64,000 nt of DNA, from assembly GCA_038087875.1 (NCBI GenBank), contig CM075989.1, forward strand, positions 16,618,001 to 16,682,000, read 5' to 3'. The position numbers were made by a program, and so were the translations under genes. The notes under the pieces are model-generated. The model was given only the letters and a program-made list of their open reading frames with translations, made no database searches and was not told the origin of the DNA. The DNA is from Malacoraja senta (Eukaryota). The number at the start of each line of letters is the position of its first letter. Within the stretch, counting starts at the first letter, position 1. Below, piece after piece: positions 2,391 to 54,490 of this stretch.

Positions 2391-3890
2391 ACTCCACAAT
2401 TTGAGATTTGTAACATGTGGTTAAAGTGCACATTGTCAGATTTCAATAAAGGCCATTTTTATACAATTTGGTTTCACCATGTAGAAATTACAACTGTGTT
2501 TACACATAGTCCCCCCCATTTCAGGGCACCATAATGATTGGGACACATGGCTTCACGGGTGTTTGTAATTGCTCAGGTGTGTTTAAATGCCTCCTTAATG
2601 CAGGTATAAGAGAGCTCTCAGCACTAGTCTTTCCTCCAGTCTTTCCATCACCTTTGGAAACTTTTATTGCTGTTTATCAACATGAGGACCAAAGTTGTGC
2701 CAATGAAAGTCAAAGATGTCATTATGAGACTGAGAAACAATAATAAAACTGTTAAGAGACATCAGCCAAACCTTAGGCTTACCAAAATCAACTGTTTGGA
2801 ACATCATTAAAAAAAGAGAGCACTGGTGAGCTTACTAATCGCAAAGTGACTGGCAGGACAAGGGAAACCTCCACAGCTGATGACAGAAGAATTCTCTCTA
2901 TAATAAAGAAAAATCCCCAAACACCTGTCCGACAGATCAGAAACACTCTTCAGGTGTGGATTTGTCAATGACCACTGTCCGCAAAAGATTTCATGAACAG
3001 AAATACAGAGGCAACACTGCAAGATGCAAACCACTGCTTGGCCGTAAAAATAGGATGGCCAGGTTACAGTTTGCCAAGTAGTACTTAAAAGAGCAACCAC
3101 AATTCTGGAAAAAGGTATTGTGGACAGATGAGACAAAGAATAACTTATATCAGAGTGATGGCAAGAGCAAAATATGGAGGAGAGAAGGAACTGCCCAAGA
3201 TCCAAAACATACCACCTCATCTGTGAAACACGTTGATGGAGGCGTTATGGCCTGGGCATGTATGGCTGCTGAAGGTACTGGGTCGCTTATCTTCATTGAT
3301 GATACAATTGATGATGGTCGTAGCATAATGAATTCTGAAGTGTATAGACACATCCTATCTGCTCAAGTTCAAACAAATGCCTCAAAACTCATTGGCCGGC
3401 AGTTCATTCTACAGCAAGACAATAATCCCAAACATACTGCTGAAGCAACAAAGGAGTTTTTCAAAGCTATAAAATGGTAAATTCTTGAGTGGCCAAGTCA
3501 ATCACCCGATCTGAACCCAATTGAGCATGCCTTTTATTTGCTGAAGAGAAAACTGAAGGGGTCTAGCCCCCAAAACAAGCATAAGCAAAAGATGGCTGCA
3601 ATACAGGATATGCAACAAAATACTAAACATGACTACTTTCATTTACATGACATTGCTGTGGCCCAAACATTATGTGGCCCTGAAATGGGGGAACAATGTA
3701 TAAACTGTAATTTCTATGCTGTAATTTATATATGGTGAAACCAAAATGTATACAAATGGCCTTTAATAAAATCTGACAATGTGTACTTTAACCATGTGAT
3801 TTTTCTTTCTATTAAAAATCTCAAATTGTGAAGTACCGAGGCGAATAAAAAAATGATGGGTTTTTGTCCCAAACAATATGGAGGGCACTG
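2391..3890 (+). mobile_element. Tc1/mariner (DD34E) DNA transposon, decayed, left TIR truncated
   Basis: WTDETK, QQDNNPKHT, WPSQSPDLNPIE with stops and frameshifts. The right TIR ends ...GGAGGGCACTG at 3890. Confidence 0.92.
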
Positions 3891-12907: not shown

Positions 12908-13232
12908 TGGCAGTTGGAACGGAAGGGACGTCACGACCGCGGTGCCACAGGTGCCACAGGTGCGGCCCGGGCTGTCGCCGAGGGAGGAAGGACGGAGCCG
13001 CGGCTCGAGAGGCTAACAGAGCTAAGAGGTAGGCCACGCACTGCAAGGGAGCAGTGGACCAGACAGAAAGAGCGGACGGAATTACCACTAGACAGCCAAA
13101 CCAGTAGGTAATTTACGGCTGGGGTAAGTACTTTCCCATTTATAGGAGGTAGGATTATATAAATAAGGGGTGTTTTAATACAGTAATCCAGGTAGGGGAT
13201 TCTTAATAGGACCAGTTAATTACTTATATAAG

Positions 13233-14186
13233 ATGAGCGGCCAGGAGATGTGCCAATACTGTGAGATGTGGGAATTTGTCGACACCATTGATGTAGATGA
13301 TCCCTACAGCTGCAGTAAGTGTTTGAGGCTAGCGGAACTCGAGCTCCGCATTGATGAGCTGGAGACCCAACTTCATACGCTGCGGTGCATCAGGGAGGGG
13401 GAGTATTACCTGGATGTTTTGTGCCAGGGGATGGTCACACCGACCAGTTTAACTAATTCAGTAGTTAGTGAGCAGGGAAAGGAAGGTGTGGCCATAAGCG
13501 AGGCAGGTAGGGGGAACCAGGAGGAGATGCGGCAGGAGCCACAGCCCTTGTCCCTGACGAGCATGACCGAGGCTCTTACTCAATGTGAGGACGGGATCAG
13601 GGGCTGTGGGAGGGATGAGCAACCTGGCTGCAGCACCGTGGATCAGGGGGCCATTCAAGAGGGGGGAGTTAGAAGAAATGCCGTTGTGATAGGGGATAGT
13701 ATTATTCGGGGGGTAGATAAGGTTCTCTGCGGCCAGCAGAACATGTCCCGAAGGCTGTGTTGCCTACCCGGTGCTAAGGTTAAGGATATCTCTGCGATGC
13801 TGGAGAGAAATTTGCAGAGTGAGGGGGAGGATCCAGTGGTCGTGGTCCATGTGGGGACCAATGACATAGGAAGGACGAGGCAGGAGGATCTGCTGAACGA
13901 GTTTGAGCAGTTAGGGAATAAATTAAAAAGCAGAACCTCGAGGGTACTGATCTCCGGATTGCTACCTGAGCCACGGGCCAAATCGGCGAGGGTACGTAAA
14001 ATTAAAAAGCTGAATGCGTGGCTCAAAGACTGGTGTGGGAAAAATGGGTTTGGTTTCTTGGGCCACTGGCACCAGTACTGGGACAGGGGGGATCTGTTCT
14101 GTAAGGACGGACTTCACCTGAACGGTGCTGGGACTGGGGTCCTGGCAAATCATATAACTAGGGCAGTAGAGAGGTCTTTAAACTAA
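13233..14186 (+). CDS. CR1 ORF1: N-terminal CxxC..CxxC zinc finger and coiled coil plus SGNH esterase domain (317 aa)
   Basis: CQYC/CSKC, LELRIDELETQL heptads, GDS (VIGDSIIR), GTND and DGLH motifs. Confidence 0.93.
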   Translation: MSGQEMCQYCEMWEFVDTIDVDDPYSCSKCLRLAELELRIDELETQLHTLRCIREGEYYLDVLCQGMVTPTSLTNSVVSEQGKEGVAISEAGRGNQEEMRQEPQPLSLTSMTEALTQCEDGIRGCGRDEQPGCSTVDQGAIQEGGVRRNAVVIGDSIIRGVDKVLCGQQNMSRRLCCLPGAKVKDISAMLERNLQSEGEDPVVVVHVGTNDIGRTRQEDLLNEFEQLGNKLKSRTSRVLISGLLPEPRAKSARVRKIKKLNAWLKDWCGKNGFGFLGHWHQYWDRGDLFCKDGLHLNGAGTGVLANHITRAVERSLN

Positions 14187-14275
14187 GTAGCGGGGGGGAG
14201 GTATCAAGGGGGGTAATAAAGGCAGGGGTAGAGGAAATAGAGCAGGGTATCAGTGGGGAAACGGAAAATCAAAAT

Positions 14276-17170
14276 GTGACAGGAGGATCCAGAATGTGTG
14301 AAGATAAAGCTCTAGATGTAAAAGGGGCAAAAACAGAAAGGAAGGGTAGTAAAAATCATCTGAAAGTGCTGTATCTAAATGCACGGAGTATTCGAAATAA
14401 GATAAATGAATTAACGGTGCAATTAAGTATATATAGTTATGATATCGTGGCCATTACGGAGACATGGCTGCAAGGGGATCAGGATTGGGAGTTAAATATA
14501 GAGGGGTACTCGACAATTAGAAAAGATAGACAGGAAAGAAAGGGAGGAGGGGTGGCCCTTTTAATAAGGGAGGGAATAACGGCAATAGAGAGGAAGGATA
14601 TTGCGTTGAAGGATCAGGATAGTGAAACAGCTTGGGTACAGATAGAGAATAACAAGGGGAAAAAAACACTAGTGGGTGTAATTTATAGACCTCCAAATAG
14701 CTGTGACGCTGTTAGTCAGAACATAAATCTGCAAATAGTTGACGCATGTAAAAAGGGAACTGCTGTAATCATGGGGGACTTCAATTTTCATATTAATTGG
14801 GCAAACCAAACTGGGCAGGGTAGACTAGAGGAAGAGTTTATAGAATGTATTCGAGACGGGTTCCTAGAACAGTATGTCACAGAACCGACAAGGGGGGAGG
14901 CAATCTTGGATCTGGTCCTGTGTAATGAAGCAGGATTAATTAAAAATGTCATAGTTAGGGACTCGTTGGGAACAAGTGACCACAATATGGTCGAATTCCA
15001 TATTCAAATAGAAGGGGAGCAGGTTGAAACTCAGGCTAGGGTACTTAGTTTAAATAAGGGGGATTATGAAGGTATGAGGACTGAGCTGATCAAAGTTGAC
15101 TGGGATAGCAGACTCAAGAATAAGACGGTACATGAGCAGTGGTGTACGTTTAAGGATCTACTGTATAACCTTCAAGAAAAATTTATTCCTATGAAGAAAA
15201 AAAGGGGTAAGGGAAAGAACAGTCAGCCATGGCTCAGTAAAACTATAAAGGATAGTATTCGGCTGAAGGCAAGAGCATATAAGGTAGCCAGAGATAGTGG
15301 GAGGGTAGAGGATTGGGAAGCATTTAAAGGTCAGCAAAAAATAACTAAGAGATTAATCAAGACGGGGAAAATAGACTATGAAAGGAATTTAGCGAACAAC
15401 ATAAAAACTAATAGTAAGAGTTTTTATAGCTATATAAAAAGAAAAAGGGTGGCTAAGGTGAACGTTGGTCCATTGGAGGGTGAGACTGGAGAGTTGTTGG
15501 TGGGGAACATGGAAATGGCAAAGGCATTAAACGAGTATTTTGTATCAGTCTTCACCATAGAAGACACAAAAAATATTCCAACGCTGGATAAACAGGGGGC
15601 GGTAGGAATGGAGGAGCTAAATACTATTAAGATCACCAAGGAGGTGGTATTAGGGAAATTAATGAGACTGAAGGTGGATAAATCCCCTGGGCCTGATGGA
15701 TTACATCCAAGGGTCTTGAGGGAGATAGCGGTGGGGATTGTGGATGCATTGGTGATAATTTTCCAAAACTCCCTGGAGGCAGGAACGGTCCCAGTGGATT
15801 GGAAAATGGCCAATGTAACACCTATATTTAAAAAAGGAAGTAAACAGAAGGCGGGTAACTATAGACCGGTTAGTCTAACATCGGTGGTGGGTAAAATGTT
15901 AGAGACAATTATTAAAGAAACACTAACGGGGCACTTGGATAAACATGACTTCATCGGACAGAACCAGCATGGTTTTGTGAAGGGGAAGTCCTGTTTAACG
16001 AATCTGCTCGAATTCTTTGAGGAAGTAACAACCCGGGTGGATAAAGGGGAACCGGTGGATGTGGTATACTTGGACTTCCAAAAGGCTTTTGACAAGGTGC
16101 CACATAAGAGACTATTGCTAAAAATAAAAAAATATGGGATTGGGGGTAATATATTAGCATGGGTAGAGGATTGGCTAACAAATAGGAAGCAGAGAGTGGG
16201 GATAAATGGTTCATACTCGGGATGGCAACCGGTAACTAGCGGGGTTCCGCAAGGGTCGGTGCTGGGACCCCAGTTGTTCACAATTTATATAAATGATTTG
16301 GAGGAGGGAACCAAGTGTAATATATCAAAATTTGCGGACGATACAAAAATGGGAGGAAAAGTAGGGGATGAGGAGGATAGGAAGAGTCTGCAAAAGGATA
16401 TAGATAAGCTAGGTGAGTGGGCAACAACTTGGCAGATGAAATTTAATACTAATAAATGTGAAGTCATTCACTTTGGGAAAAAAAATGATAGGGCAAGTTA
16501 TTTTCTAAATGAGGTGGAGCTGCGTTGTAATGCAACGCAAAGGGATCTAGGGGTAGTAGTACATGAATCACTAAAAGTTAGTATGCAGGTGCAGCAAGCA
16601 ATCAGGAAGGCCAATGGAGTTTTGGCCTTTATTGCTAGGGGGGTTGAGTATAAAAACACGGAGGTCTTGCTGCAGCTGTACACAGTATTAGTGAGACCAC
16701 ATTTGGAATACTGTGTACAGTTCTGGGGTCCATACTTAAGAAAGGATGTACTGGCCCTGGAGGCAGTGCAGCGAAGGTTTACAAGATTAATTCCTGCAAT
16801 GAGGGGATTGACATATGAGGAAAGGTTAAGTAGGCTGGAACTCTACTCTTTGGAGTTTAGAAGAATGAGAGGCGATCTCATTGAAACATATAAGATCGTG
16901 AGGGGCCTTGATCGGGTGGATGCACCGAGGATGTTCCCAATGATTGGGGAAACTAGAACTAGGGGACATAGTTGTAGAATAAGGGGGGGCTCTTTTAAAA
17001 CTGAGATGAGGAAGAACTTCTTCACCCAGAGGGTGGTTAATTTATGGAATTCACTGCCCCAGGGAGCAGTGGAAGCAGAAACATTAAATATATTTAAGTC
17101 TAAAATAGATTGTTTTTTAGCTGCCAAGGGGATAAGGGGCTACGGGGAGAGGGCAGGGATATGGACCTAG
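14276..17170 (+). CDS. CR1 ORF2: APE endonuclease plus reverse transcriptase (964 aa, no internal stops)
   Basis: YLNARS, ITETW, GDFN, SDH (APE); KSPGPDG, YRPVSL, DFQKAFD, GVPQGSVLGP, FADD (RT). The frame is open upstream to 14162. The first ATG is at 14294. Confidence 0.97.
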   Translation: MTGGSRMCEDKALDVKGAKTERKGSKNHLKVLYLNARSIRNKINELTVQLSIYSYDIVAITETWLQGDQDWELNIEGYSTIRKDRQERKGGGVALLIREGITAIERKDIALKDQDSETAWVQIENNKGKKTLVGVIYRPPNSCDAVSQNINLQIVDACKKGTAVIMGDFNFHINWANQTGQGRLEEEFIECIRDGFLEQYVTEPTRGEAILDLVLCNEAGLIKNVIVRDSLGTSDHNMVEFHIQIEGEQVETQARVLSLNKGDYEGMRTELIKVDWDSRLKNKTVHEQWCTFKDLLYNLQEKFIPMKKKRGKGKNSQPWLSKTIKDSIRLKARAYKVARDSGRVEDWEAFKGQQKITKRLIKTGKIDYERNLANNIKTNSKSFYSYIKRKRVAKVNVGPLEGETGELLVGNMEMAKALNEYFVSVFTIEDTKNIPTLDKQGAVGMEELNTIKITKEVVLGKLMRLKVDKSPGPDGLHPRVLREIAVGIVDALVIIFQNSLEAGTVPVDWKMANVTPIFKKGSKQKAGNYRPVSLTSVVGKMLETIIKETLTGHLDKHDFIGQNQHGFVKGKSCLTNLLEFFEEVTTRVDKGEPVDVVYLDFQKAFDKVPHKRLLLKIKKYGIGGNILAWVEDWLTNRKQRVGINGSYSGWQPVTSGVPQGSVLGPQLFTIYINDLEEGTKCNISKFADDTKMGGKVGDEEDRKSLQKDIDKLGEWATTWQMKFNTNKCEVIHFGKKNDRASYFLNEVELRCNATQRDLGVVVHESLKVSMQVQQAIRKANGVLAFIARGVEYKNTEVLLQLYTVLVRPHLEYCVQFWGPYLRKDVLALEAVQRRFTRLIPAMRGLTYEERLSRLELYSLEFRRMRGDLIETYKIVRGLDRVDAPRMFPMIGETRTRGHSCRIRGGSFKTEMRKNFFTQRVVNLWNSLPQGAVEAETLNIFKSKIDCFLAAKGIRGYGERAGIWT

Positions 17171-34626: not shown

Positions 34627-34840
34627 CTTCTCTGTTAGGAACGAAGGCTTATAGGCACCGTCAGTCGAAGTATTTCCTGTTCCCCTTAAAGACTTCATAT
34701 GAGAGACAGCCATGCGAAGAATCGTCAGTTTATCAGGTTTGCGTGCTAAAGCACTACATGTTGGTACCATGTCAGACAACTCTGTGATATAAGCAGTCAT
34801 CTTGTTTCGACGTCTTCTTTCAATTTCACTGTGATTCTCT
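34627..34840 (-). CDS. ARNT2: ARNT2 bHLH exon, 214 nt ([72 protein letters not shown])
   Basis: Inside ORF 34618-34914. Acceptor cacag|, donor AAG|gttggt. Canonical ARNT-family bHLH. Confidence 0.97.
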
Positions 34841-42778: not shown

Positions 42779-44373
42779 CAGTGCCCTCCATAATTATTTG
42801 CCTCTGTACTCCACAATTTGAGATTTGTAATAGAAAAAAATCACATGTGGCTAAAGTATACATTGCACATTTTAATAAAGGCCATTTTTATACATTTTGG
42901 TTTCACCATGTAGAAATTACAGCAGTGTTTATGCATAGTCCCCCCCATTTCAGGGCACCATAATGTTTGGAACACAGCAATGTCATGTAAATGTTTAGTA
43001 TTTTATTGCATGTCCTTTGCATGCAATGACTGCTTGAAGTCTGCGATTCATGGACATCACCAGTTGCTGGGTGTCTTCTCTGGTGATGCTCTGCCAGGCC
43101 TGTATTGCAGCCATCTTTAGCTTATGCTTGCTTTGAGGGCTAGTCCCCTTGAGTTTTCTCTTCAGCATAATAAAGGCATGCTCAATTGGGTTAAGATCGG
43201 GTGATTGACTTGGCCACTCAAGAATTGACCATTTTTTAGCTTTGAAAAACTCCTTTGTTGCTTTAGCAGTAAGTTTGGGATCATTGTCTTGCTGTAGAAT
43301 GAACAGCCGGCCAATGAGTTTTGAGGCATTTGTTTGAACTTGAGCAGATAGGATGTGTCTATACACTTTAGAATTCATTATGCTACTACCATCAGCAGTT
43401 GTATCATCAATGACGATAAGTGAGCCAGTTCCTTCAGCAGCCATACATGCCCAAGCCATTACACCCCCACCACCGTGTTTCACAAATGAAGTGATATGCT
43501 TTGGATCTTGGGCAGTTCCTTCTCTCCTCCGTACTTTGCTCTTGCCATTACTCTGATATGTTAGTCTTCATCTCCTCAAGACATTTTTCCAGAACTGTGG
43601 TTGCTCTTTTAAGTACTTCTTGGCAAACTGTAATCTGGCCATCTTATTTTTGTGGCTAACCAGTGGTTTGCCTCTTGCAGTGTTGCCTCTGTATTTCTGT
43701 TCATGAAGTCTTCTGCGGACAGTGGTCATTGACAAATCCACACCCGACTCCTGAAGAGTGTTTCTGATCTGTCGGACAGGTGTTTGGGGATATTTCTTTA
43801 TTATAGGGAGAATTCTTCTGTCATCAGCTGTGGAGGTCTTCCTTGGCCTGCCAGTCCCTTTGCGATTAGTAAACTCACCAATGCTCTCTTTCTTCTTAAT
43901 GATGTTCCAAACAATTGATTTTGGTGAGCCTAAGGTTTGGCTGATGTCTTTAACAATTTTATTATTGTTTCTCATAATGGCTTATTTGACTTAATTGGCA
44001 CAACTCCACTCCTAATGTTGATAAATAGCAATAAAAGTTTCCAATGTTGATGAAAAGACTGGAGGAAAGACGAGGTGCTGAGAGCACTCTTATACCTGCA
44101 TTAAGGAGGCATTTAAACACACCTGAGCAATTACAAACACCCATGAAGCCATGTGTCCCAAACATTATGGTGCCCTGAAATGGGGGGACTATGTATAAAC
44201 ACAGCTGTAATTTCCTCATGGTGAAACCAAAATGTATAAAAATTGCCTTTATTAAAATCTGACAATGTGCACCTTAACCACATTTGATTTTTTCTATTAT
44301 AAATCTCAAATTGTGGAGTACAAAGGCAAATAAAGAAATGATGGGTCTGTCCCAACCATTATGGAGGGCACTA
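42779..44373 (-). mobile_element. Near full-length Tc1 (DD34E) transposon with long IR/DR-type TIRs, transposase disrupted
   Basis: TA|CAGTGCCCTCCATAAT ... ATTATGGAGGGCACTA|TA. TIRs about 200 bp with internal ccataatgtttgg(g/a)acac repeats. ORFs 43568-43975 (HTH) and 42995-43483 (QQD-34 aa-E). Confidence 0.95.
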
Positions 44374-44670: not shown

Positions 44671-46743
44671 GGATAGAAGGCCAAGGACTGGTTCATGGTA
44701 TAAGATAAGAGGCAACCTGATGGTTAGCATGGAGATGGAGGACCATGCACCATCTTCAGAACTGCCATTCTCTTATGCTCCAATTGCAACCATGTAACCT
44801 CTAATAAAAGAGGCAACATTGATCCCCAAGAAAATCCATTTAGTTGATCTCTACATGATCTGTTGTGTAATAGCACCTTGATCAGATAGTACTGTCAGTC
44901 TGGTTGAATGCCGCAACATCCACGATACATGATGCTTTCACCAAGAGGTAGTAGGAGGACAGCCAATTTAGGTTCTGCTGATCACTCCCAGAAGAAACTC
45001 TTCATGTTATTTTTAGCTAATAGATGTAAATAATCACACATCATCAGGACTAATGGAAACACTCAGATGGGCAGCAACTGGGGAAAGAGAAATATTTAAC
45101 ATTTCCAATTGAAGACACTTCATTAGGTCTTTAATCTGAAACATTAACTCCGATTCTCTTTCCACAGCTGTTGTCTGATCTCCTGTGTGCTTTTATCATT
45201 TTCTTTTTTATTTCATATCTGGAGTATTTTTTGATTTTCTTTTATCAGGATTAATGTTAAAATTACTTGAACCAATTATTATTTCACTAAATTCCTATTA
45301 CTTAATGCAAAAAAAAAAGAAACGCTCTGATCATTGACAGAAAGCTGCCCTACAAAACCATAACCGTCTCCAAAATCTGAACCTATCATAATTGGTCTGC
45401 TCAGAAAGTCACATACTTGTGGTCACTTTAGATGGATCTGAAAATCAATGTGTACATCATAAGAGACCTCAAAAGATCTGATGTTTAGAAGAGTGATTTG
45501 CATTTTGATAAGGGAGGCGGTGAATGTGTCAAGTGATTCCCCATCTGATAGAAGCAAGAAGCATTCTTGAGCTTAGAGGAGATCTAGTACCTCTACTCTC
45601 ATGCTTCAAATTCATTTTCTCCAGAATGCACTAGTACTGCCGTGGGTAAATTCAGGTCAAAAATGGGTGCAGCGGTGAACCATTCTGCCATTCCAGCTCT
45701 ATGAACCATTCAACAGCATCACGACTGGGGAGACTTTCCTTCTCCCCTGACTCTCAGTCTGAAGAAGGGTCTTGACTCAAAACTTCACCTATTGCTTTTC
45801 TCCAGAGATGCTTTCTGACCCGCTGAGTTACTCCAGCATTTTGTGTCTATCTAACTCAAATATATGCTCATACACGTTTCCCATATGCCTTAGTGAATAT
45901 CAGTTTCAGTCTTGAACATATAACTGAGAATTCATTGTCCCTTGACACAAAAAGAGTTCCGCGCTCTGTGTGAAACAATTCATTCTCACCACAATCCTAA
46001 AGATCTTATCCTCAGGCCATATATCCCAGTTCTGAAGTCTGCTGCAAAGTAGAACATCCATCCTGTCAGAATATATAATGGCCAATTAAGATCGCTCATT
46101 GTTCTAAAATCCAAAAAGCATTAACTAATCTGATTCAATCTCTCTCACCATCCTAATTGACCGTCTCCGGTACGGGGTTGGTATTGATGGCACTGCCCTG
46201 AGCTGGTTCATCTCCTACCTCAAAGACAGGAGTTTCTCTACAAACATAGGCAACACTTTCTCCTCCCCAGCTAGCCTTTGCTGCGGGGTTCCACAAGGCT
46301 CCATCCTAGGCCCCATTCTCTTCTCCCTGTATATGCTCCCCTTAGGCCAAGCCATTCAAAGGCATGGCATTTCCTTCCACTGCTATGCAGACGATACACA
46401 GCTCTATCTCCCCCTGAAACCCAACAACCAATCAAATCTACTCAGCCTTATACACTGCCTCGAGGATATAAAGTGTTGGATGGCCCAGAACTTCCTCCAA
46501 CTAAACGAGAGCAAGTCTGAGGTCATCCTACTCGGCCCCTCGGATTCCATCAAAACAATAGCAGGCAGCCTTGGAAGCCTTACCCCCTTACTCAAAACTC
46601 ACATCAAAAACCTTGGCATGATATTTGACTCCGCGTTGAAGTTTGACAAACAAATCAATGTTGTGGTAAAAGCTAGCTTCTTCCAGCTTCGCACGATAGC
46701 TAAAATAAAAATATTCCTCCAATTTGACGACCTTGAAAAGATC

Positions 46744-46890
46744 TTCTGCTTCTTCTTCTTCTTTCGTGTGGCGTGCACAGCCTAAAGTTGTTACACAACT
46801 TGTTCTATTTGATCTTCCGTTTGTGCACGTCGAGTTGATTGCATTAGTCGAAATAGGGCGGACCACGTGAAGATTGCAATCTTCCACCCC
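46744..46890 (-). mobile_element. Short retroposon with 5' HDV-like ribozyme fold and (GAA)n tail
   Basis: Flanked by cttgaaaagatc (46732-46743) and gttgaaaatatc (46891-46902). Removing it restores the L2 frame DDLEKI-IHSFISSRLD. Confidence 0.85.
46837..46890 (-). ncRNA. Minimal HDV/CPEB3-like self-cleaving ribozyme candidate
   Basis: P1 GGGGTGG/CCGCCCT, P2 GATTGCA/TGCAATC, P3 ATC/GGT, L3 TTCACGT, tiny P4, J4/2 C-TAA. Confidence 0.75.
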
Positions 46891-48584
46891 GTTGAAAATA
46901 TCATCCACTCATTTATCTCCTCCCGCCTTGATTACTGCAACTCCCTTTACACTGGCATCAGCCAATCATCCCTGTCCCGCCTGCAATTGGTCCAAAACGC
47001 CGCAGCGAGACTTCTGACTGGCACCCGAAAAAGGGATCACATCACCCCGATTCTGGCCTCTCTCCACTGGCTCCCAGTGCGGTTCAGAATCACTTTCAAG
47101 CTTCTCCTTTATGTATACAAAGCCCTTAACGGGCTTGCCTCCACCTACAGCAAAAATCTGCTAACCTACCATTCTACCTCCAGGTCCCTCAGGTCGGCTG
47201 ACTTGGGGTTACTGACGATACCGCGGTCCAGGCATAATCTCAGGGGCGACCCCGCTTTTGCAGTTGCAGCACCTAGACTATGGAACAGCATCCCTCTTCC
47301 CATCAGAACTGCCCCCTCCATCAACTCTTTTAAGTCTGGACTAAAAACTTATTTCTACTCACAAGCATTTCTTGAGGTCCTCGGAGGGAGCGCTGTATGT
47401 ATGTATTGTTAGATCTATGTACCACTGTTTGTAGAACGTTAATACCTGCACTGTTGTTAAGCACTTTGGTCAACGAGAGTTGTTTTTAAATGTGCTAAGG
47501 AAATAAAATTGACTTGACTTGACAGGAAAATCTCACACCCAAAGAATCAAAATGGAACTTCTAAGGCAAGGAAATCTGTCTTCAGATAAGGAAACTAAGA
47601 GCACTAAAAATATTCCAGATATGGTATGTTTGCAGTTCTGCAAAGTTGTAGCACAAGTTCTTTACTCTTAATTGATTACAACAGTGCAATAAAACACATA
47701 ATAGATGTGTTTACTGCTTCCTATATGTGTTATAAAACTCCTTGGACAGCATCTTCCAAACCCATGACCTCTGCCAACCAGGTCAGGGGCAGCAAAATCC
47801 AAGGAACATAATCAACTGGAAATTGCCCTCCATGCCACACACCATACTGGCTTGGAAATATATCGCTGTTTCTTCAACGCCGCTGGGACAAATTTCTGAA
47901 AATCTCTCCCTAACACCCTTGTGGGTATACCAACACCTCGAGGACTACCGTGGTTCACAAAGACAGCTCACTACTATCTTCCCAAGGACAATTAAGAATG
48001 GGCGATTAAATACTCGCTCAGTCCTCATCCCTTGAATGAATAAAAATAAAATTGTTTCATTTACCAGTTATTCCAGATCCTTTTGCAGGACGACATTTAC
48101 TTGTGCTTTGCCGTGTAATAAATGCTCTATTTTACTATATTATCACGATGAAGAATCTCACATATTTGCTCCATCTGCTGCCCCTTTATTCTCTCACAAT
48201 CCATTTCCTGTCTTAGACTCTGATGCTGCTCAGAAATCACGTCTAGCATTAATATGATGCCAATATTGTATCCCACTTTTCAGCCCATGCCAGAATGTTG
48301 TCTAGGTCTTGGTGCACAGACTGCTTTATTTTCTGAGAAGTTACGAATGGAATTAAGCATAGTGCAAAGATTAGCAATACAAAAACATACAACTTTTAAG
48401 ATGGAATGAGGGACATTGATGAAGCAGCAAACGATATGCGGGCCTAGGACATTGTCCTGAGGAGCTTCGACAGTGACCTCCTGGGGCTGGGATGATTGAT
48501 CTCCAAAGACCTCCTTTGTGTAAGGTATGTCTCTAACTATTAAAGTGTTTACTTTTTGATGTCCATTGACTTCAGTTTTACCAT

Positions 48585-54089: not shown

Positions 54090-54490
54090 GCGTCTCCCCA
54101 GGATGGGGGGCGTCTCCCCGGGGTGGGGTGGGGGCGTCTCCCCGGTGGTCCGTATCGCCCAGCCCAGCCCCGCCCGATGGCCGGCCTCGCCGGTCACAAT
54201 GAGCAGCGAGCGTGAGGTGGAAACCGCGCCGGCGCCGAAGCTGCAGCTCTTACCCCGACCGTCGCTTCCCTCCGCGGGCAGGCACCGCTCCTATCACCCT
54301 CAACTGCCCGGGGCCTGGTGTGGGCGGGTTGCTCGGGGCTGTCAGAGGCAGAGCCACCGGGTCGGGCACGTCTGAGCTCATCCCCGCGGCCATGAACAGC
54401 GCGCCCCTCACTGCCACTGCGCACGCGCCGCTCGTGCGGCGACGGGAGCGCGCAGGCGCATTACACGGATCCCCCCTCTGGCTGGGCCTG
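54090..54490 (-). promoter_or_regulatory. CpG island, probable ARNT2 promoter/5' region with NRF1-like motifs
   Basis: Dense CpG stretch around the ATG exon. TGCGCACGCGC (54418-54428) and GCGCAGGCGCA (54450-54460) resemble the NRF1 consensus. Confidence 0.7.
54254..54393 (-). CDS. ARNT2: ARNT2 first visible coding exon (MAAGMSSDVPDPVALP...VPARGGKRRS-G)
   Basis: ATG at 54393-54391 in a CpG-rich island. Encodes PARGGKRRSG, the ARNT2 N-terminal NLS-like motif. Ends GG|gtaag (phase 2), in frame with the next exon. Start codon assignment is inferred. Confidence 0.85.

What the first reader, a model, noticed from the sequence alone, without database searches (positions are those of the whole stretch)
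46744..46890. 147-nt retroposon whose 5' end is exactly a minimal HDV/CPEB3-like ribozyme
Seen on the minus strand from the first base after the TSD: GGGGTGG AA GATTGCA ATC TTCACGT GGT CCGCCCT A TTTCGA C TAA TGCAATC. This gives P1 (7 bp opening with G-U), a perfect 7-bp P2, P3, a nearly absent P4 and a candidate catalytic C at 46847. About 90 nt follow, ending in a (GAA)n tail, with a 12-bp imperfect TSD and no Pol III A/B boxes. Established: the L3 loop UUCACGU is that of the mammalian CPEB3 ribozyme, and HDV-like ribozymes process the 5' ends of R2 and ingi/L1Tc retrotransposons. Inference: a promoterless SINE-like family that excises itself from host transcripts. It is in the ARNT2 sense orientation, so it could cut the pre-mRNA intron. 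This copy may be impaired: A rather than G at the P1.1 position (46854), and a competing palindrome GAAGATTGCAATCTTC.
Basis: partly seen in the sequence, partly recalled or inferred. Interest (0 to 1): 0.88.

Follow-up and report, generated by a model that had tools for sequence, protein, structure and literature searches.

The report
Ribozyme-headed mini-retroposon from a Vingi-like LINE
This is one slightly damaged copy of a short jumping element, present in thousands of copies, made of the two ends of a larger retrotransposon, and its first 54 bases fit the fold of a very small self-cutting RNA related to the mammalian CPEB3 ribozyme.

Summary
Window 46890-46744 (-) is a 147-nt retroposon with a 12-bp target duplication, inserted in an L2 fragment inside an ARNT-family intron. 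A 23-nt piece of its head has 9,627 genome matches at up to 2 mismatches (control 0). Of 30 copies picked by their tail, 25 start at G1 and none extends further. The family carries G at 46854 and a perfect P3, so this copy is probably impaired.

It is not a free-standing SINE. I found its parent, a decayed ~3.1-kb APE-RT LINE of Vingi type. The element is that LINE's first ~80 nt, a 13-nt junction and the LINE's last ~35 nt plus (GAA)n: a short internally deleted element, like NARTc, RIME or the R2 SIDEs. Across nine lineages in this genome the HDV fold is 98% paired, with compensatory changes in 12 of 18 pairs and an invariant candidate catalytic C. Two sister LINEs score 59.7 bits on Rfam's mammalian CPEB3 model; this element has no Rfam hit. 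Cleavage and the lack of a promoter are untested. New: a P4-less HDV-like core in a vertebrate retroposon, and a lead that CPEB3's ribozyme is a Vingi relic.

The parts
46891..46902 (-). Target-site duplication, 5' copy (10 of 12 identical to the 3' copy)
   Evidence: the empty site skips 159 nt in 4 of 4 runs
46837..46890 (-). 54-nt P4-less HDV/CPEB3-type ribozyme fold, inherited from the 5' end of the parent LINE; predicted cleavage just 5' of G46890
46869..46884 (-). Palindrome created by the rare T at 46873 (family has C); competes with P2 and P3 in this copy
46854..46854 (-). P1.1 position: A here, G in the family, so the C22-G37 pair is lost
46844..46847 (-). J4/2 with the candidate catalytic C at 46847; this C and the last A are invariant in 9 lineages
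46812..46836 (-). Rest of the segment shared with the parent LINE's 5' UTR
46799..46811 (-). 13-nt junction that begins with a repeat of the preceding 8 nt of the C-type/LINE sequence; marks the internal deletion
   Evidence: sequence comparison, (origin by duplication is inferred)
46765..46798 (-). 3' end of the parent LINE: last codons of the ORF, stop codon and 3' UTR
46744..46764 (-). (GAA)n tail, as on the Vingi-type LINEs of this genome
46732..46743 (-). Target-site duplication, 3' copy
46129..47412 (+). Host: reverse-transcriptase-region fragment of another LINE (L2 type, label recalled), split by the insertion
   Evidence: open frames 46129-46785 and 46813-47412; empty-site joints
34636..34840 (-). 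bHLH exon of an ARNT-family gene, downstream of the element and in the same sense
54254..54393 (-). Candidate upstream coding exon of the same gene, ending at a GT donor; places the element in an intron, sense orientation
   Evidence: likeness to the ARNT2 N-terminus is recalled, not tested

Best explanation
The element is a short internally deleted derivative (SIDE, bipartite non-autonomous LINE) of a Vingi-type LINE. Shown: it is built from the LINE's 5' ~80 nt and 3' ~35 nt, and it spread by target-primed reverse transcription (duplicated targets, repeat tail) to roughly 10,000 copies in at least three subfamilies. Inferred: a copy lying in any read-through transcript folds its first 54 nt into a P4-less HDV-type double pseudoknot and cuts itself just before G1. 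That gives a uniform 5' end, and a Vingi protein supplied in trans recognises the 3' end and inserts the RNA. The window copy has lost the P1.1 pair and gained a competing hairpin, so it is probably slow or dead.
For: Parent: L288/L289 carries element nt 9-80 directly before an endonuclease frame. It matches a C-type copy at 69 of 72 nt (46 of 46 in the ribozyme part) and the window copy at 64 of 72. Its frames hit PF14529 and PF00078 and are 36% identical to the sister LINE protein P0001. Tail: 9 of the 25 non-self LINE ORF-end hits that fall in the range listed have the exact 30-nt tail motif 6 nt downstream; the other 14 non-self hits lie outside the listed range. A second LINE copy has the ribozyme core exactly where predicted (C1:12508313-12508335). 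Fold: 9 lineages, 18 pairs, 98.1% paired against 71.8% shuffled, 12 pairs with two-sided change, covariation 0.77 against 0.22, slid controls 33-46%. 5' end: 25 of 30 tail-selected loci start at G1, 5 are 5'-truncated (two of these one duplicated locus), none shares upstream sequence. Loose ends pile up at 46890 with unrelated flanks in 3 of 4 runs among the rows shown. Differences between subfamilies A, B and C in the ribozyme fall at J1/2, at a U-A to U-G pair and at the second J4/2 base. Precedent: NARTc and R2 SIDE ribozymes cleave in vitro (PMC3383444, PMC3414825; passages read), and P4-less minimal ribozymes cleave (PMC10879173; passages read).
Against: No cleavage assay and no RNA 5'-end data: the runs laid were contigs whose RNA status is only guessed. 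No Rfam hit for the element or for the parent's 5' end (L288). Within the element's own family there is no two-sided compensatory change; the covariation comes from sister families, which are related and were partly chosen by a shared motif. The one parent copy read lacks nt 1-8 and is frameshifted, and its tail is cut by another insertion. At least 4 of the 100 listed hits are short copies, not LINEs. No reverse-transcriptase tree was built, so 'Vingi' rests on architecture and on likeness to printed Vingi 5' ends.
Confidence: 0.76

Rival explanations
1. Same LINE-derived element, but the 5' 80 nt act mainly as an internal Pol II promoter that starts at G1. The fold is kept for 5' protection or protein recognition, and cleavage is secondary or absent.
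For: In the related Ingi clade the first 77 nt of L1Tc and NARTc are an internal promoter as well as a ribozyme (PMC3383444, passages). Dispersed insertion is compatible with an own promoter. A precise G1 start is predicted by both models.
Against: The candidate catalytic C, the U20/G25 bases, C22-G37 and the last J4/2 A are kept across 9 lineages while helix sequences turn over. That pattern is expected from selection on catalysis, not on a DNA promoter.
Confidence: 0.15
2. The P4-less core is a degenerate, non-catalytic remnant of a full Vingi ribozyme. The sharp 5' end reflects where reverse transcription stops or how the template is captured.
For: No Rfam hit. Only five or six bases stand where P4 should be, and folding energy gives no signal.
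Against: The parent LINE, which was once autonomous, has the same short core. A second, separate short family D has an equally short P4 region with a compensated P2. Natural P4-less ribozymes are active.
Confidence: 0.07
3. A new class of SINE whose head is an independently acquired ribozyme, with no LINE parent for the 5' part.
For: Seven end-anchored pattern searches did not reveal a parent.
Against: A protein-led search then found a LINE that shares both ends.
Confidence: 0.02

Closest known systems
NARTc / RIME (non-autonomous derivatives of L1Tc and ingi, trypanosomes)
   Same: Short element made of the 5' ~77 nt and 3' ~30 nt of an Ingi-group LINE, with an HDV-like ribozyme that cuts before +1 (PMC3383444 passages; PMC4035085 part 1 of 7).
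   Different: Vertebrate host, 147 against 263 nt, (GAA)n tail, a ribozyme without P4, about 10,000 copies; promoter activity unknown here.
R2 SIDEs and R2/R1 hybrid SIDEs (Drosophila)
   Same: Internally deleted non-LTR elements that keep a self-cleaving HDV-like 5' end and the 3' recognition end (PMC3414825 passages).
   Different: Those are rDNA site-specific, low copy and carry a large ribozyme; this one is dispersed, high copy and derives from an APE-type LINE.
Non-autonomous Vingi derivatives (Vingi-1_EE family) and SINEs with Vingi 5' parts
   Same: Vingi is one of four clades reported to give bipartite non-autonomous LINEs (PMC5786205 passages). The printed 5' ends of Vingi-2_Gav, Vingi-4_Crp, Vingi-2_SPur and Vingi-1_BF have the same layout (its supplement).
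   Different: [quoted passage not shown] The original Vingi paper could not be read.
Mammalian CPEB3 ribozyme (RF00622)
   Same: Same L3, single C-G P1.1 followed by U, same segment lengths. Sister LINE families V1 and V2 score 59.7 bits against a gathering score of 35.
   Different: The element lacks P4, has different P1/P2/P3 sequences and has no RF00622 hit. CPEB3 is a conserved intronic ribozyme, not a mobile family.
Minimal HDV-like and theta ribozymes
   Same: No P4 helix, about 55 nt (PMC10879173 passages).
   Different: That paper found nearly 99% of them in phages and reports 12 bacterial hits in a search that included human, mouse and protist genomes. Here the core heads a vertebrate retroposon.

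Membership tests
HDV-like ribozyme | Nested double pseudoknot P1, P2, P3, P1.1 | tested here: met
   98.1% paired and 12 of 18 pairs compensatory across 9 lineages; in the window copy itself P1.1 is broken
HDV-like ribozyme | Core nucleotides: G-U first pair, U20 and G25, C22-G37, catalytic C and last A in J4/2 | tested here: met
   invariant columns; core described in PMC4836649 passages
HDV-like ribozyme | Mg2+-dependent self-cleavage 5' of G1, lost on C-to-U change | not testable with these tools
   needs an in vitro assay
CPEB3 ribozyme (RF00622) | Score at or above the gathering threshold of 35 bits | tested here: not met
   no hit for the window or the parent 5' end L288; met by sister LINEs L188 and L197 at 59.7 bits
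Minimal (P4-less) HDV-like ribozymes | P4 absent or reduced to a few bases with the rest of the fold intact | tested here: met
   6 nt between P1.1 and the catalytic C, against 19-41 or more in the long-P4 LINE families
SIDE / bipartite non-autonomous LINE | 5' part homologous to the 5' end of an autonomous LINE | tested here: met
   nt 1-8 are missing in the one parent copy read
SIDE / bipartite non-autonomous LINE | 3' part homologous to the 3' end of the same LINE | tested here: met
   (9 of 25 listed ORF-end hits abut the exact tail motif)
SIDE / bipartite non-autonomous LINE | Multicopy, target duplications, too short to encode the protein | tested here: met
Vingi clade (parent) | Compact single-ORF APE+RT LINE without RNase H | tested here: met
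   about 3.1 kb; Pfam finds endonuclease and RT only in P0001 and in four frames of L289; definition from PMC13708176 passages. The parent copy is frameshifted, so a single ORF is inferred from sister family V1 (open frames of 1008 and 1014 aa)
Vingi clade (parent) | Placement in an RT phylogeny with named Vingi elements | not tested
   no named Vingi proteins were held, and the script machine was lost
Classical SINE | Head derived from tRNA, 5S or 7SL RNA with a Pol III promoter | tested here: not met
   no tRNA, no Rfam hit; the head is a LINE 5' end. No dedicated A/B-box scan was run

The most novel reading that the evidence does not exclude
Vingi-type LINEs as a clade carry CPEB3-type ribozymes at their 5' ends. 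In this genome at least two lineages shrank that ribozyme to an active ~54-nt P4-less core and spawned promoterless mini-retroposons, so thousands of working self-cleavers sit in a vertebrate genome, some cutting host pre-mRNA. The mammalian CPEB3 ribozyme would then be the domesticated 5' end of one ancient Vingi insertion.
Probability: 0.45. Interest if true: 0.82.

Novelty: new variant of a known kind. Interest (0 to 1): 0.6.

Why it matters
Minimal P4-less HDV-like ribozymes were described mostly from phages, with origin and function called open (PMC10879173). Here one heads a vertebrate retroposon family and its parent LINE, which gives it a clear job, and thousands of natural variants are available to test. 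The family shows the minimum a Vingi-type template needs in cis, about 80 nt of 5' end and 35 nt of 3' end; this bears on Vingi-based gene-insertion systems that use native UTRs (PMC13708176). Sister LINEs passing the 'mammalian CPEB3' model at 59.7 bits make the origin of the human CPEB3 ribozyme directly testable. The general design, a ribozyme-headed internally deleted LINE, is already known.

Tried and rejected
Rfam scan of the window stretch: 0 hits. Pseudoknot-free folding: no signal over shuffles. End-anchored patterns meant to exclude short copies returned mutated, truncated or segmentally duplicated short copies where I read them; the loci were judged from the match rows only. They missed the parent because the junction lay elsewhere than assumed. 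The recurrent variant followed was one insertion inside a segmental duplication. Two of five rows in the alignment were given in the wrong orientation, and that alignment was not used. tRNA origin: none. Earlier findings of this scan: nothing. Papers not held: Ruminski 2011, Webb 2009 and Kojima 2011, so I cannot exclude that they already describe Vingi-borne ribozymes under other names. No repeat library (Repbase, Dfam) was searchable, so the family may already be catalogued there.

Full report
1. Observation. All described segments are present at the stated coordinates on the minus strand. The element sits in a LINE reverse-transcriptase fragment on the plus strand whose frames flank it (the L2 label is recalled). 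Contigs of 4 of 4 public runs contain the empty form, skipping 159 nt, which equals 147 nt plus a 12-nt duplication. The surrounding gene is of the ARNT family and on the same strand. Its bHLH exon at 34840-34636 is nearer ARNT than ARNT2 among solved structures, and a candidate upstream exon lies at 54393-54254. The genome is a 1.94-Gb assembly; it is a vertebrate by the ARNT exon, and a cartilaginous fish is my guess from recalled repeat types, not tested.

2. The family. A DNA search gave 1,942 first-look candidates; all 40 scored hits begin at query base 1, at 96-100% identity. Exact counts are 488 for a 45-nt A-type ribozyme stretch, 549 for a 35-nt A-type tail and 695 for a 37-nt C-type head. 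A 23-nt core has 9,627 matches at up to 2 mismatches. Reversed-pattern controls were 0 in all four. I saw three subfamilies, A, B and C; the window copy is type A. Among 30 loci chosen only by their tail, 25 start at G1, 5 are 5'-truncated (two of these are one duplicated locus) and none shares upstream sequence. The window copy differs from family A at four positions. Two lie in the ribozyme. At 46854, 28 of the 29 other loci have G, as does over 99% of depth in each run. At 46873, 28 of 29 have C. With T at 46873 the minimum-energy fold replaces P3 by the palindromic hairpin, whereas A, B and C copies fold P1 plus P3.

3. The fold. Rfam does not detect the element, and folding energy is unremarkable, as expected for a pseudoknot without P4. 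A relaxed L3/P1 motif gave 62 hits against 19 control. These included an autonomous ~3.1-kb APE+RT LINE (V1), a second LINE family (V2) and a second short family (D, about 165 nt with a GAA tail), each starting with the same layout. A protein search with V1's endonuclease region (150 of 664 candidates scored) led to further LINE families; several of the 5' regions read carry such a fold and several show none. Aligning one representative each of nine lineages (A, B, C, D, V1, V2, V5, V6, V7) and naming the HDV structure gave 98.1% of 162 cells paired against 71.8% shuffled. Twelve of 18 pairs show two-sided change, covariation is 0.77 against 0.22, and slid controls pair at 33-46%. The candidate catalytic C and the last J4/2 A are invariant. 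The rows are related, hand-picked and partly found by a shared motif; families that fit the layout less neatly (V3, V4, L275, L280, L283) were left out of this count. A model from six of the nine, without A, B and C, finds the window copy as the only significant hit in 64 kb (33.8 bits). It scores A 44.0, B 38.8, C 38.7 and the parent 36.5 bits, and it also finds the five left-out families at 17.8-31 bits. V1 and V2 score 59.7 bits on Rfam's mammalian CPEB3 model, gathering score 35; of the other seven sources in that call, two had sub-threshold ribozyme hits and five, including the parent's 5' end, had none.

4. The parent. One of 20 short upstream regions read (L288) carries the C-type ribozyme in front of an endonuclease frame. 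The 3.8-kb locus L289 shows element nt 9-80, then a separate 5' UTR, endonuclease, RT and a C-terminal cysteine/histidine motif, 36% identical to V1 in the RT-containing frame. It is frameshifted and lacks nt 1-8. It matches a C copy at 69 of 72 nt and the window copy at 64 of 72. Its 5' region has 33 genome matches at 86-96% apart from itself, and its ORF end has 484 candidates, the best 40 at 93-95% apart from itself. The ORF's last codons continue into the element's tail sequence. A LINE-type junction motif has 152 exact matches (control 0), and 9 of the 25 non-self ORF-end hits within the listed range have it exactly 6 nt downstream; 14 further hits lay outside the listed range. At least 4 of the 100 listed matches are short copies, so 152 is not a LINE count. 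A second LINE copy has the ribozyme core at the predicted place. The element is therefore the LINE's 5' ~80 nt, a 13-nt junction, its 3' ~35 nt and (GAA)n. The short P4 was inherited from the LINE, not created by the deletion.

5. Mechanism. Shown: LINE-derived bipartite structure, retrotransposition signatures, a precise G1 start and a conserved HDV fold. Inferred from established HDV-like chemistry and from the NARTc and R2 SIDE precedents: self-cleavage before G1 frees the RNA from read-through transcripts, and a Vingi protein acts in trans on the 3' end. The parent's copies look decayed, while V1 still has open frames of 1008 and 1014 aa. Subfamily A's two tail changes relative to B and C both move it toward V1's tail, so V1 may be its present driver; this is an inference only. 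My odds: LINE-derived bipartite origin 0.95, family core catalytic 0.8, this copy strongly impaired 0.8, and no promoter of its own about 0.5.

6. Comparison with what is known. Ribozyme-headed internally deleted LINEs are described: NARTc and RIME (PMC3383444, passages; PMC4035085, part 1 of 7) and R2 SIDEs (PMC3414825, passages). Vingi is named among the clades that make bipartite elements but not among those with ribozymes in the passage read (PMC5786205), although its supplement prints Vingi 5' ends with the CPEB3 layout (part 11 of 15 and search hits seen). A review notes that LINEs and non-autonomous SINEs of diverse metazoans use hammerhead or HDV-like ribozymes (PMC6765202, passages). 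P4-less ribozymes are active and were found almost only in phages (PMC10879173, passages). SIDEs are called rare in PMC6740152 (passages). Ten full-text searches listed no paper whose title or abstract describes this family, a Vingi ribozyme or a Vingi origin of CPEB3; most listed papers were seen as listings only. 'Vingi' with 'ribozyme' gave 6 papers, two of which I read in passages, with no such link. PMC10919898 and PMC5753468 (passages) make none either. Three key papers were not held, and repeat libraries, patents and bioRxiv supplements were not searchable, so absence from print is not established.

7. Verdict. Real, and well supported as a new variant of a known kind. Interest 0.6: the element type is known, but a P4-less core at about 10,000 copies in a vertebrate and the CPEB3-Vingi link are specific and testable.

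Noticed in passing
L188:203-275 (+) and L197:4448-4525 (-): 5' ends of two Vingi-type LINE families pass Rfam's mammalian CPEB3 ribozyme model at 59.7 bits (gathering score 35). Printed Vingi 5' ends of crocodilians, sea urchin and lancelet have the same layout. Suggests the CPEB3 ribozyme descends from a Vingi insertion.
   Followed up: partly
L157, L164-L169, L171, L172, L174-L176, L179-L181, L183, L185, L198, L199, L202: A second short family (D, about 165 nt, GAA tail) with a separate P4-less ribozyme. Most copies show four Gs after a variable base, so the first P1 pair may come from the target or the first G is lost on insertion. Parent not found.
   Followed up: partly
G000:C4:35488967 (-) and C8:936966 (-); loci L242, L245: V1 copies with open frames of 1008 and 1014 aa. 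Both have tandem repeats of a ~24-nt piece of the ribozyme at their 5' junction, as from repeated template jumps.
   Followed up: no
L257-L263, L264, L265, L267, L271, L275, L278, L279, L280, L283: At least six further endonuclease-coding LINE families in this genome start with HDV-like folds of different P4 length and L3 sequence.
   Followed up: partly
G000:C1:12507564-12508654, C4872:311976-312649, C1:120995423-120996465: The parent LINE's 5' part on one strand lies next to its 3' part on the other, the arrangement expected of twin-priming inversions. One contig of run X5 shows a similar inverted join at window 46882. Coordinates only.
   Followed up: no
L048:1396-1674: An A-type copy inserted in opposite orientation into the 3' part of a B-type copy, which orders A after B at this locus.
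   Followed up: yes
window 46765-46829 (-): In family A the 5'-UTR-derived and 3'-UTR-derived parts pair in an 8-bp stem enclosing a 7-bp hairpin (centroid). This may have guided the deletion or shape the template.
   Followed up: no
L091-L095, L097, L098: One B-type copy multiplied inside a segmental duplication with ~77-nt tandem repeats, mostly on small contigs.
   Followed up: partly
window 14162-17170 (+), with an upstream frame at 13179-14186: A full-length LINE with an open 1002-aa endonuclease/RT frame and an upstream 335-aa frame, CR1-like by recall, probably young.
   Followed up: no
window 42995-43981 (-) and 3082-3480 (+): Tc1-like transposase remnants (label recalled).
   Followed up: no
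runs X1-X16: The A-type stretch is held in full by runs under five organism labels. Related species, relabelled samples or horizontal transfer cannot be told apart here.
   Followed up: partly
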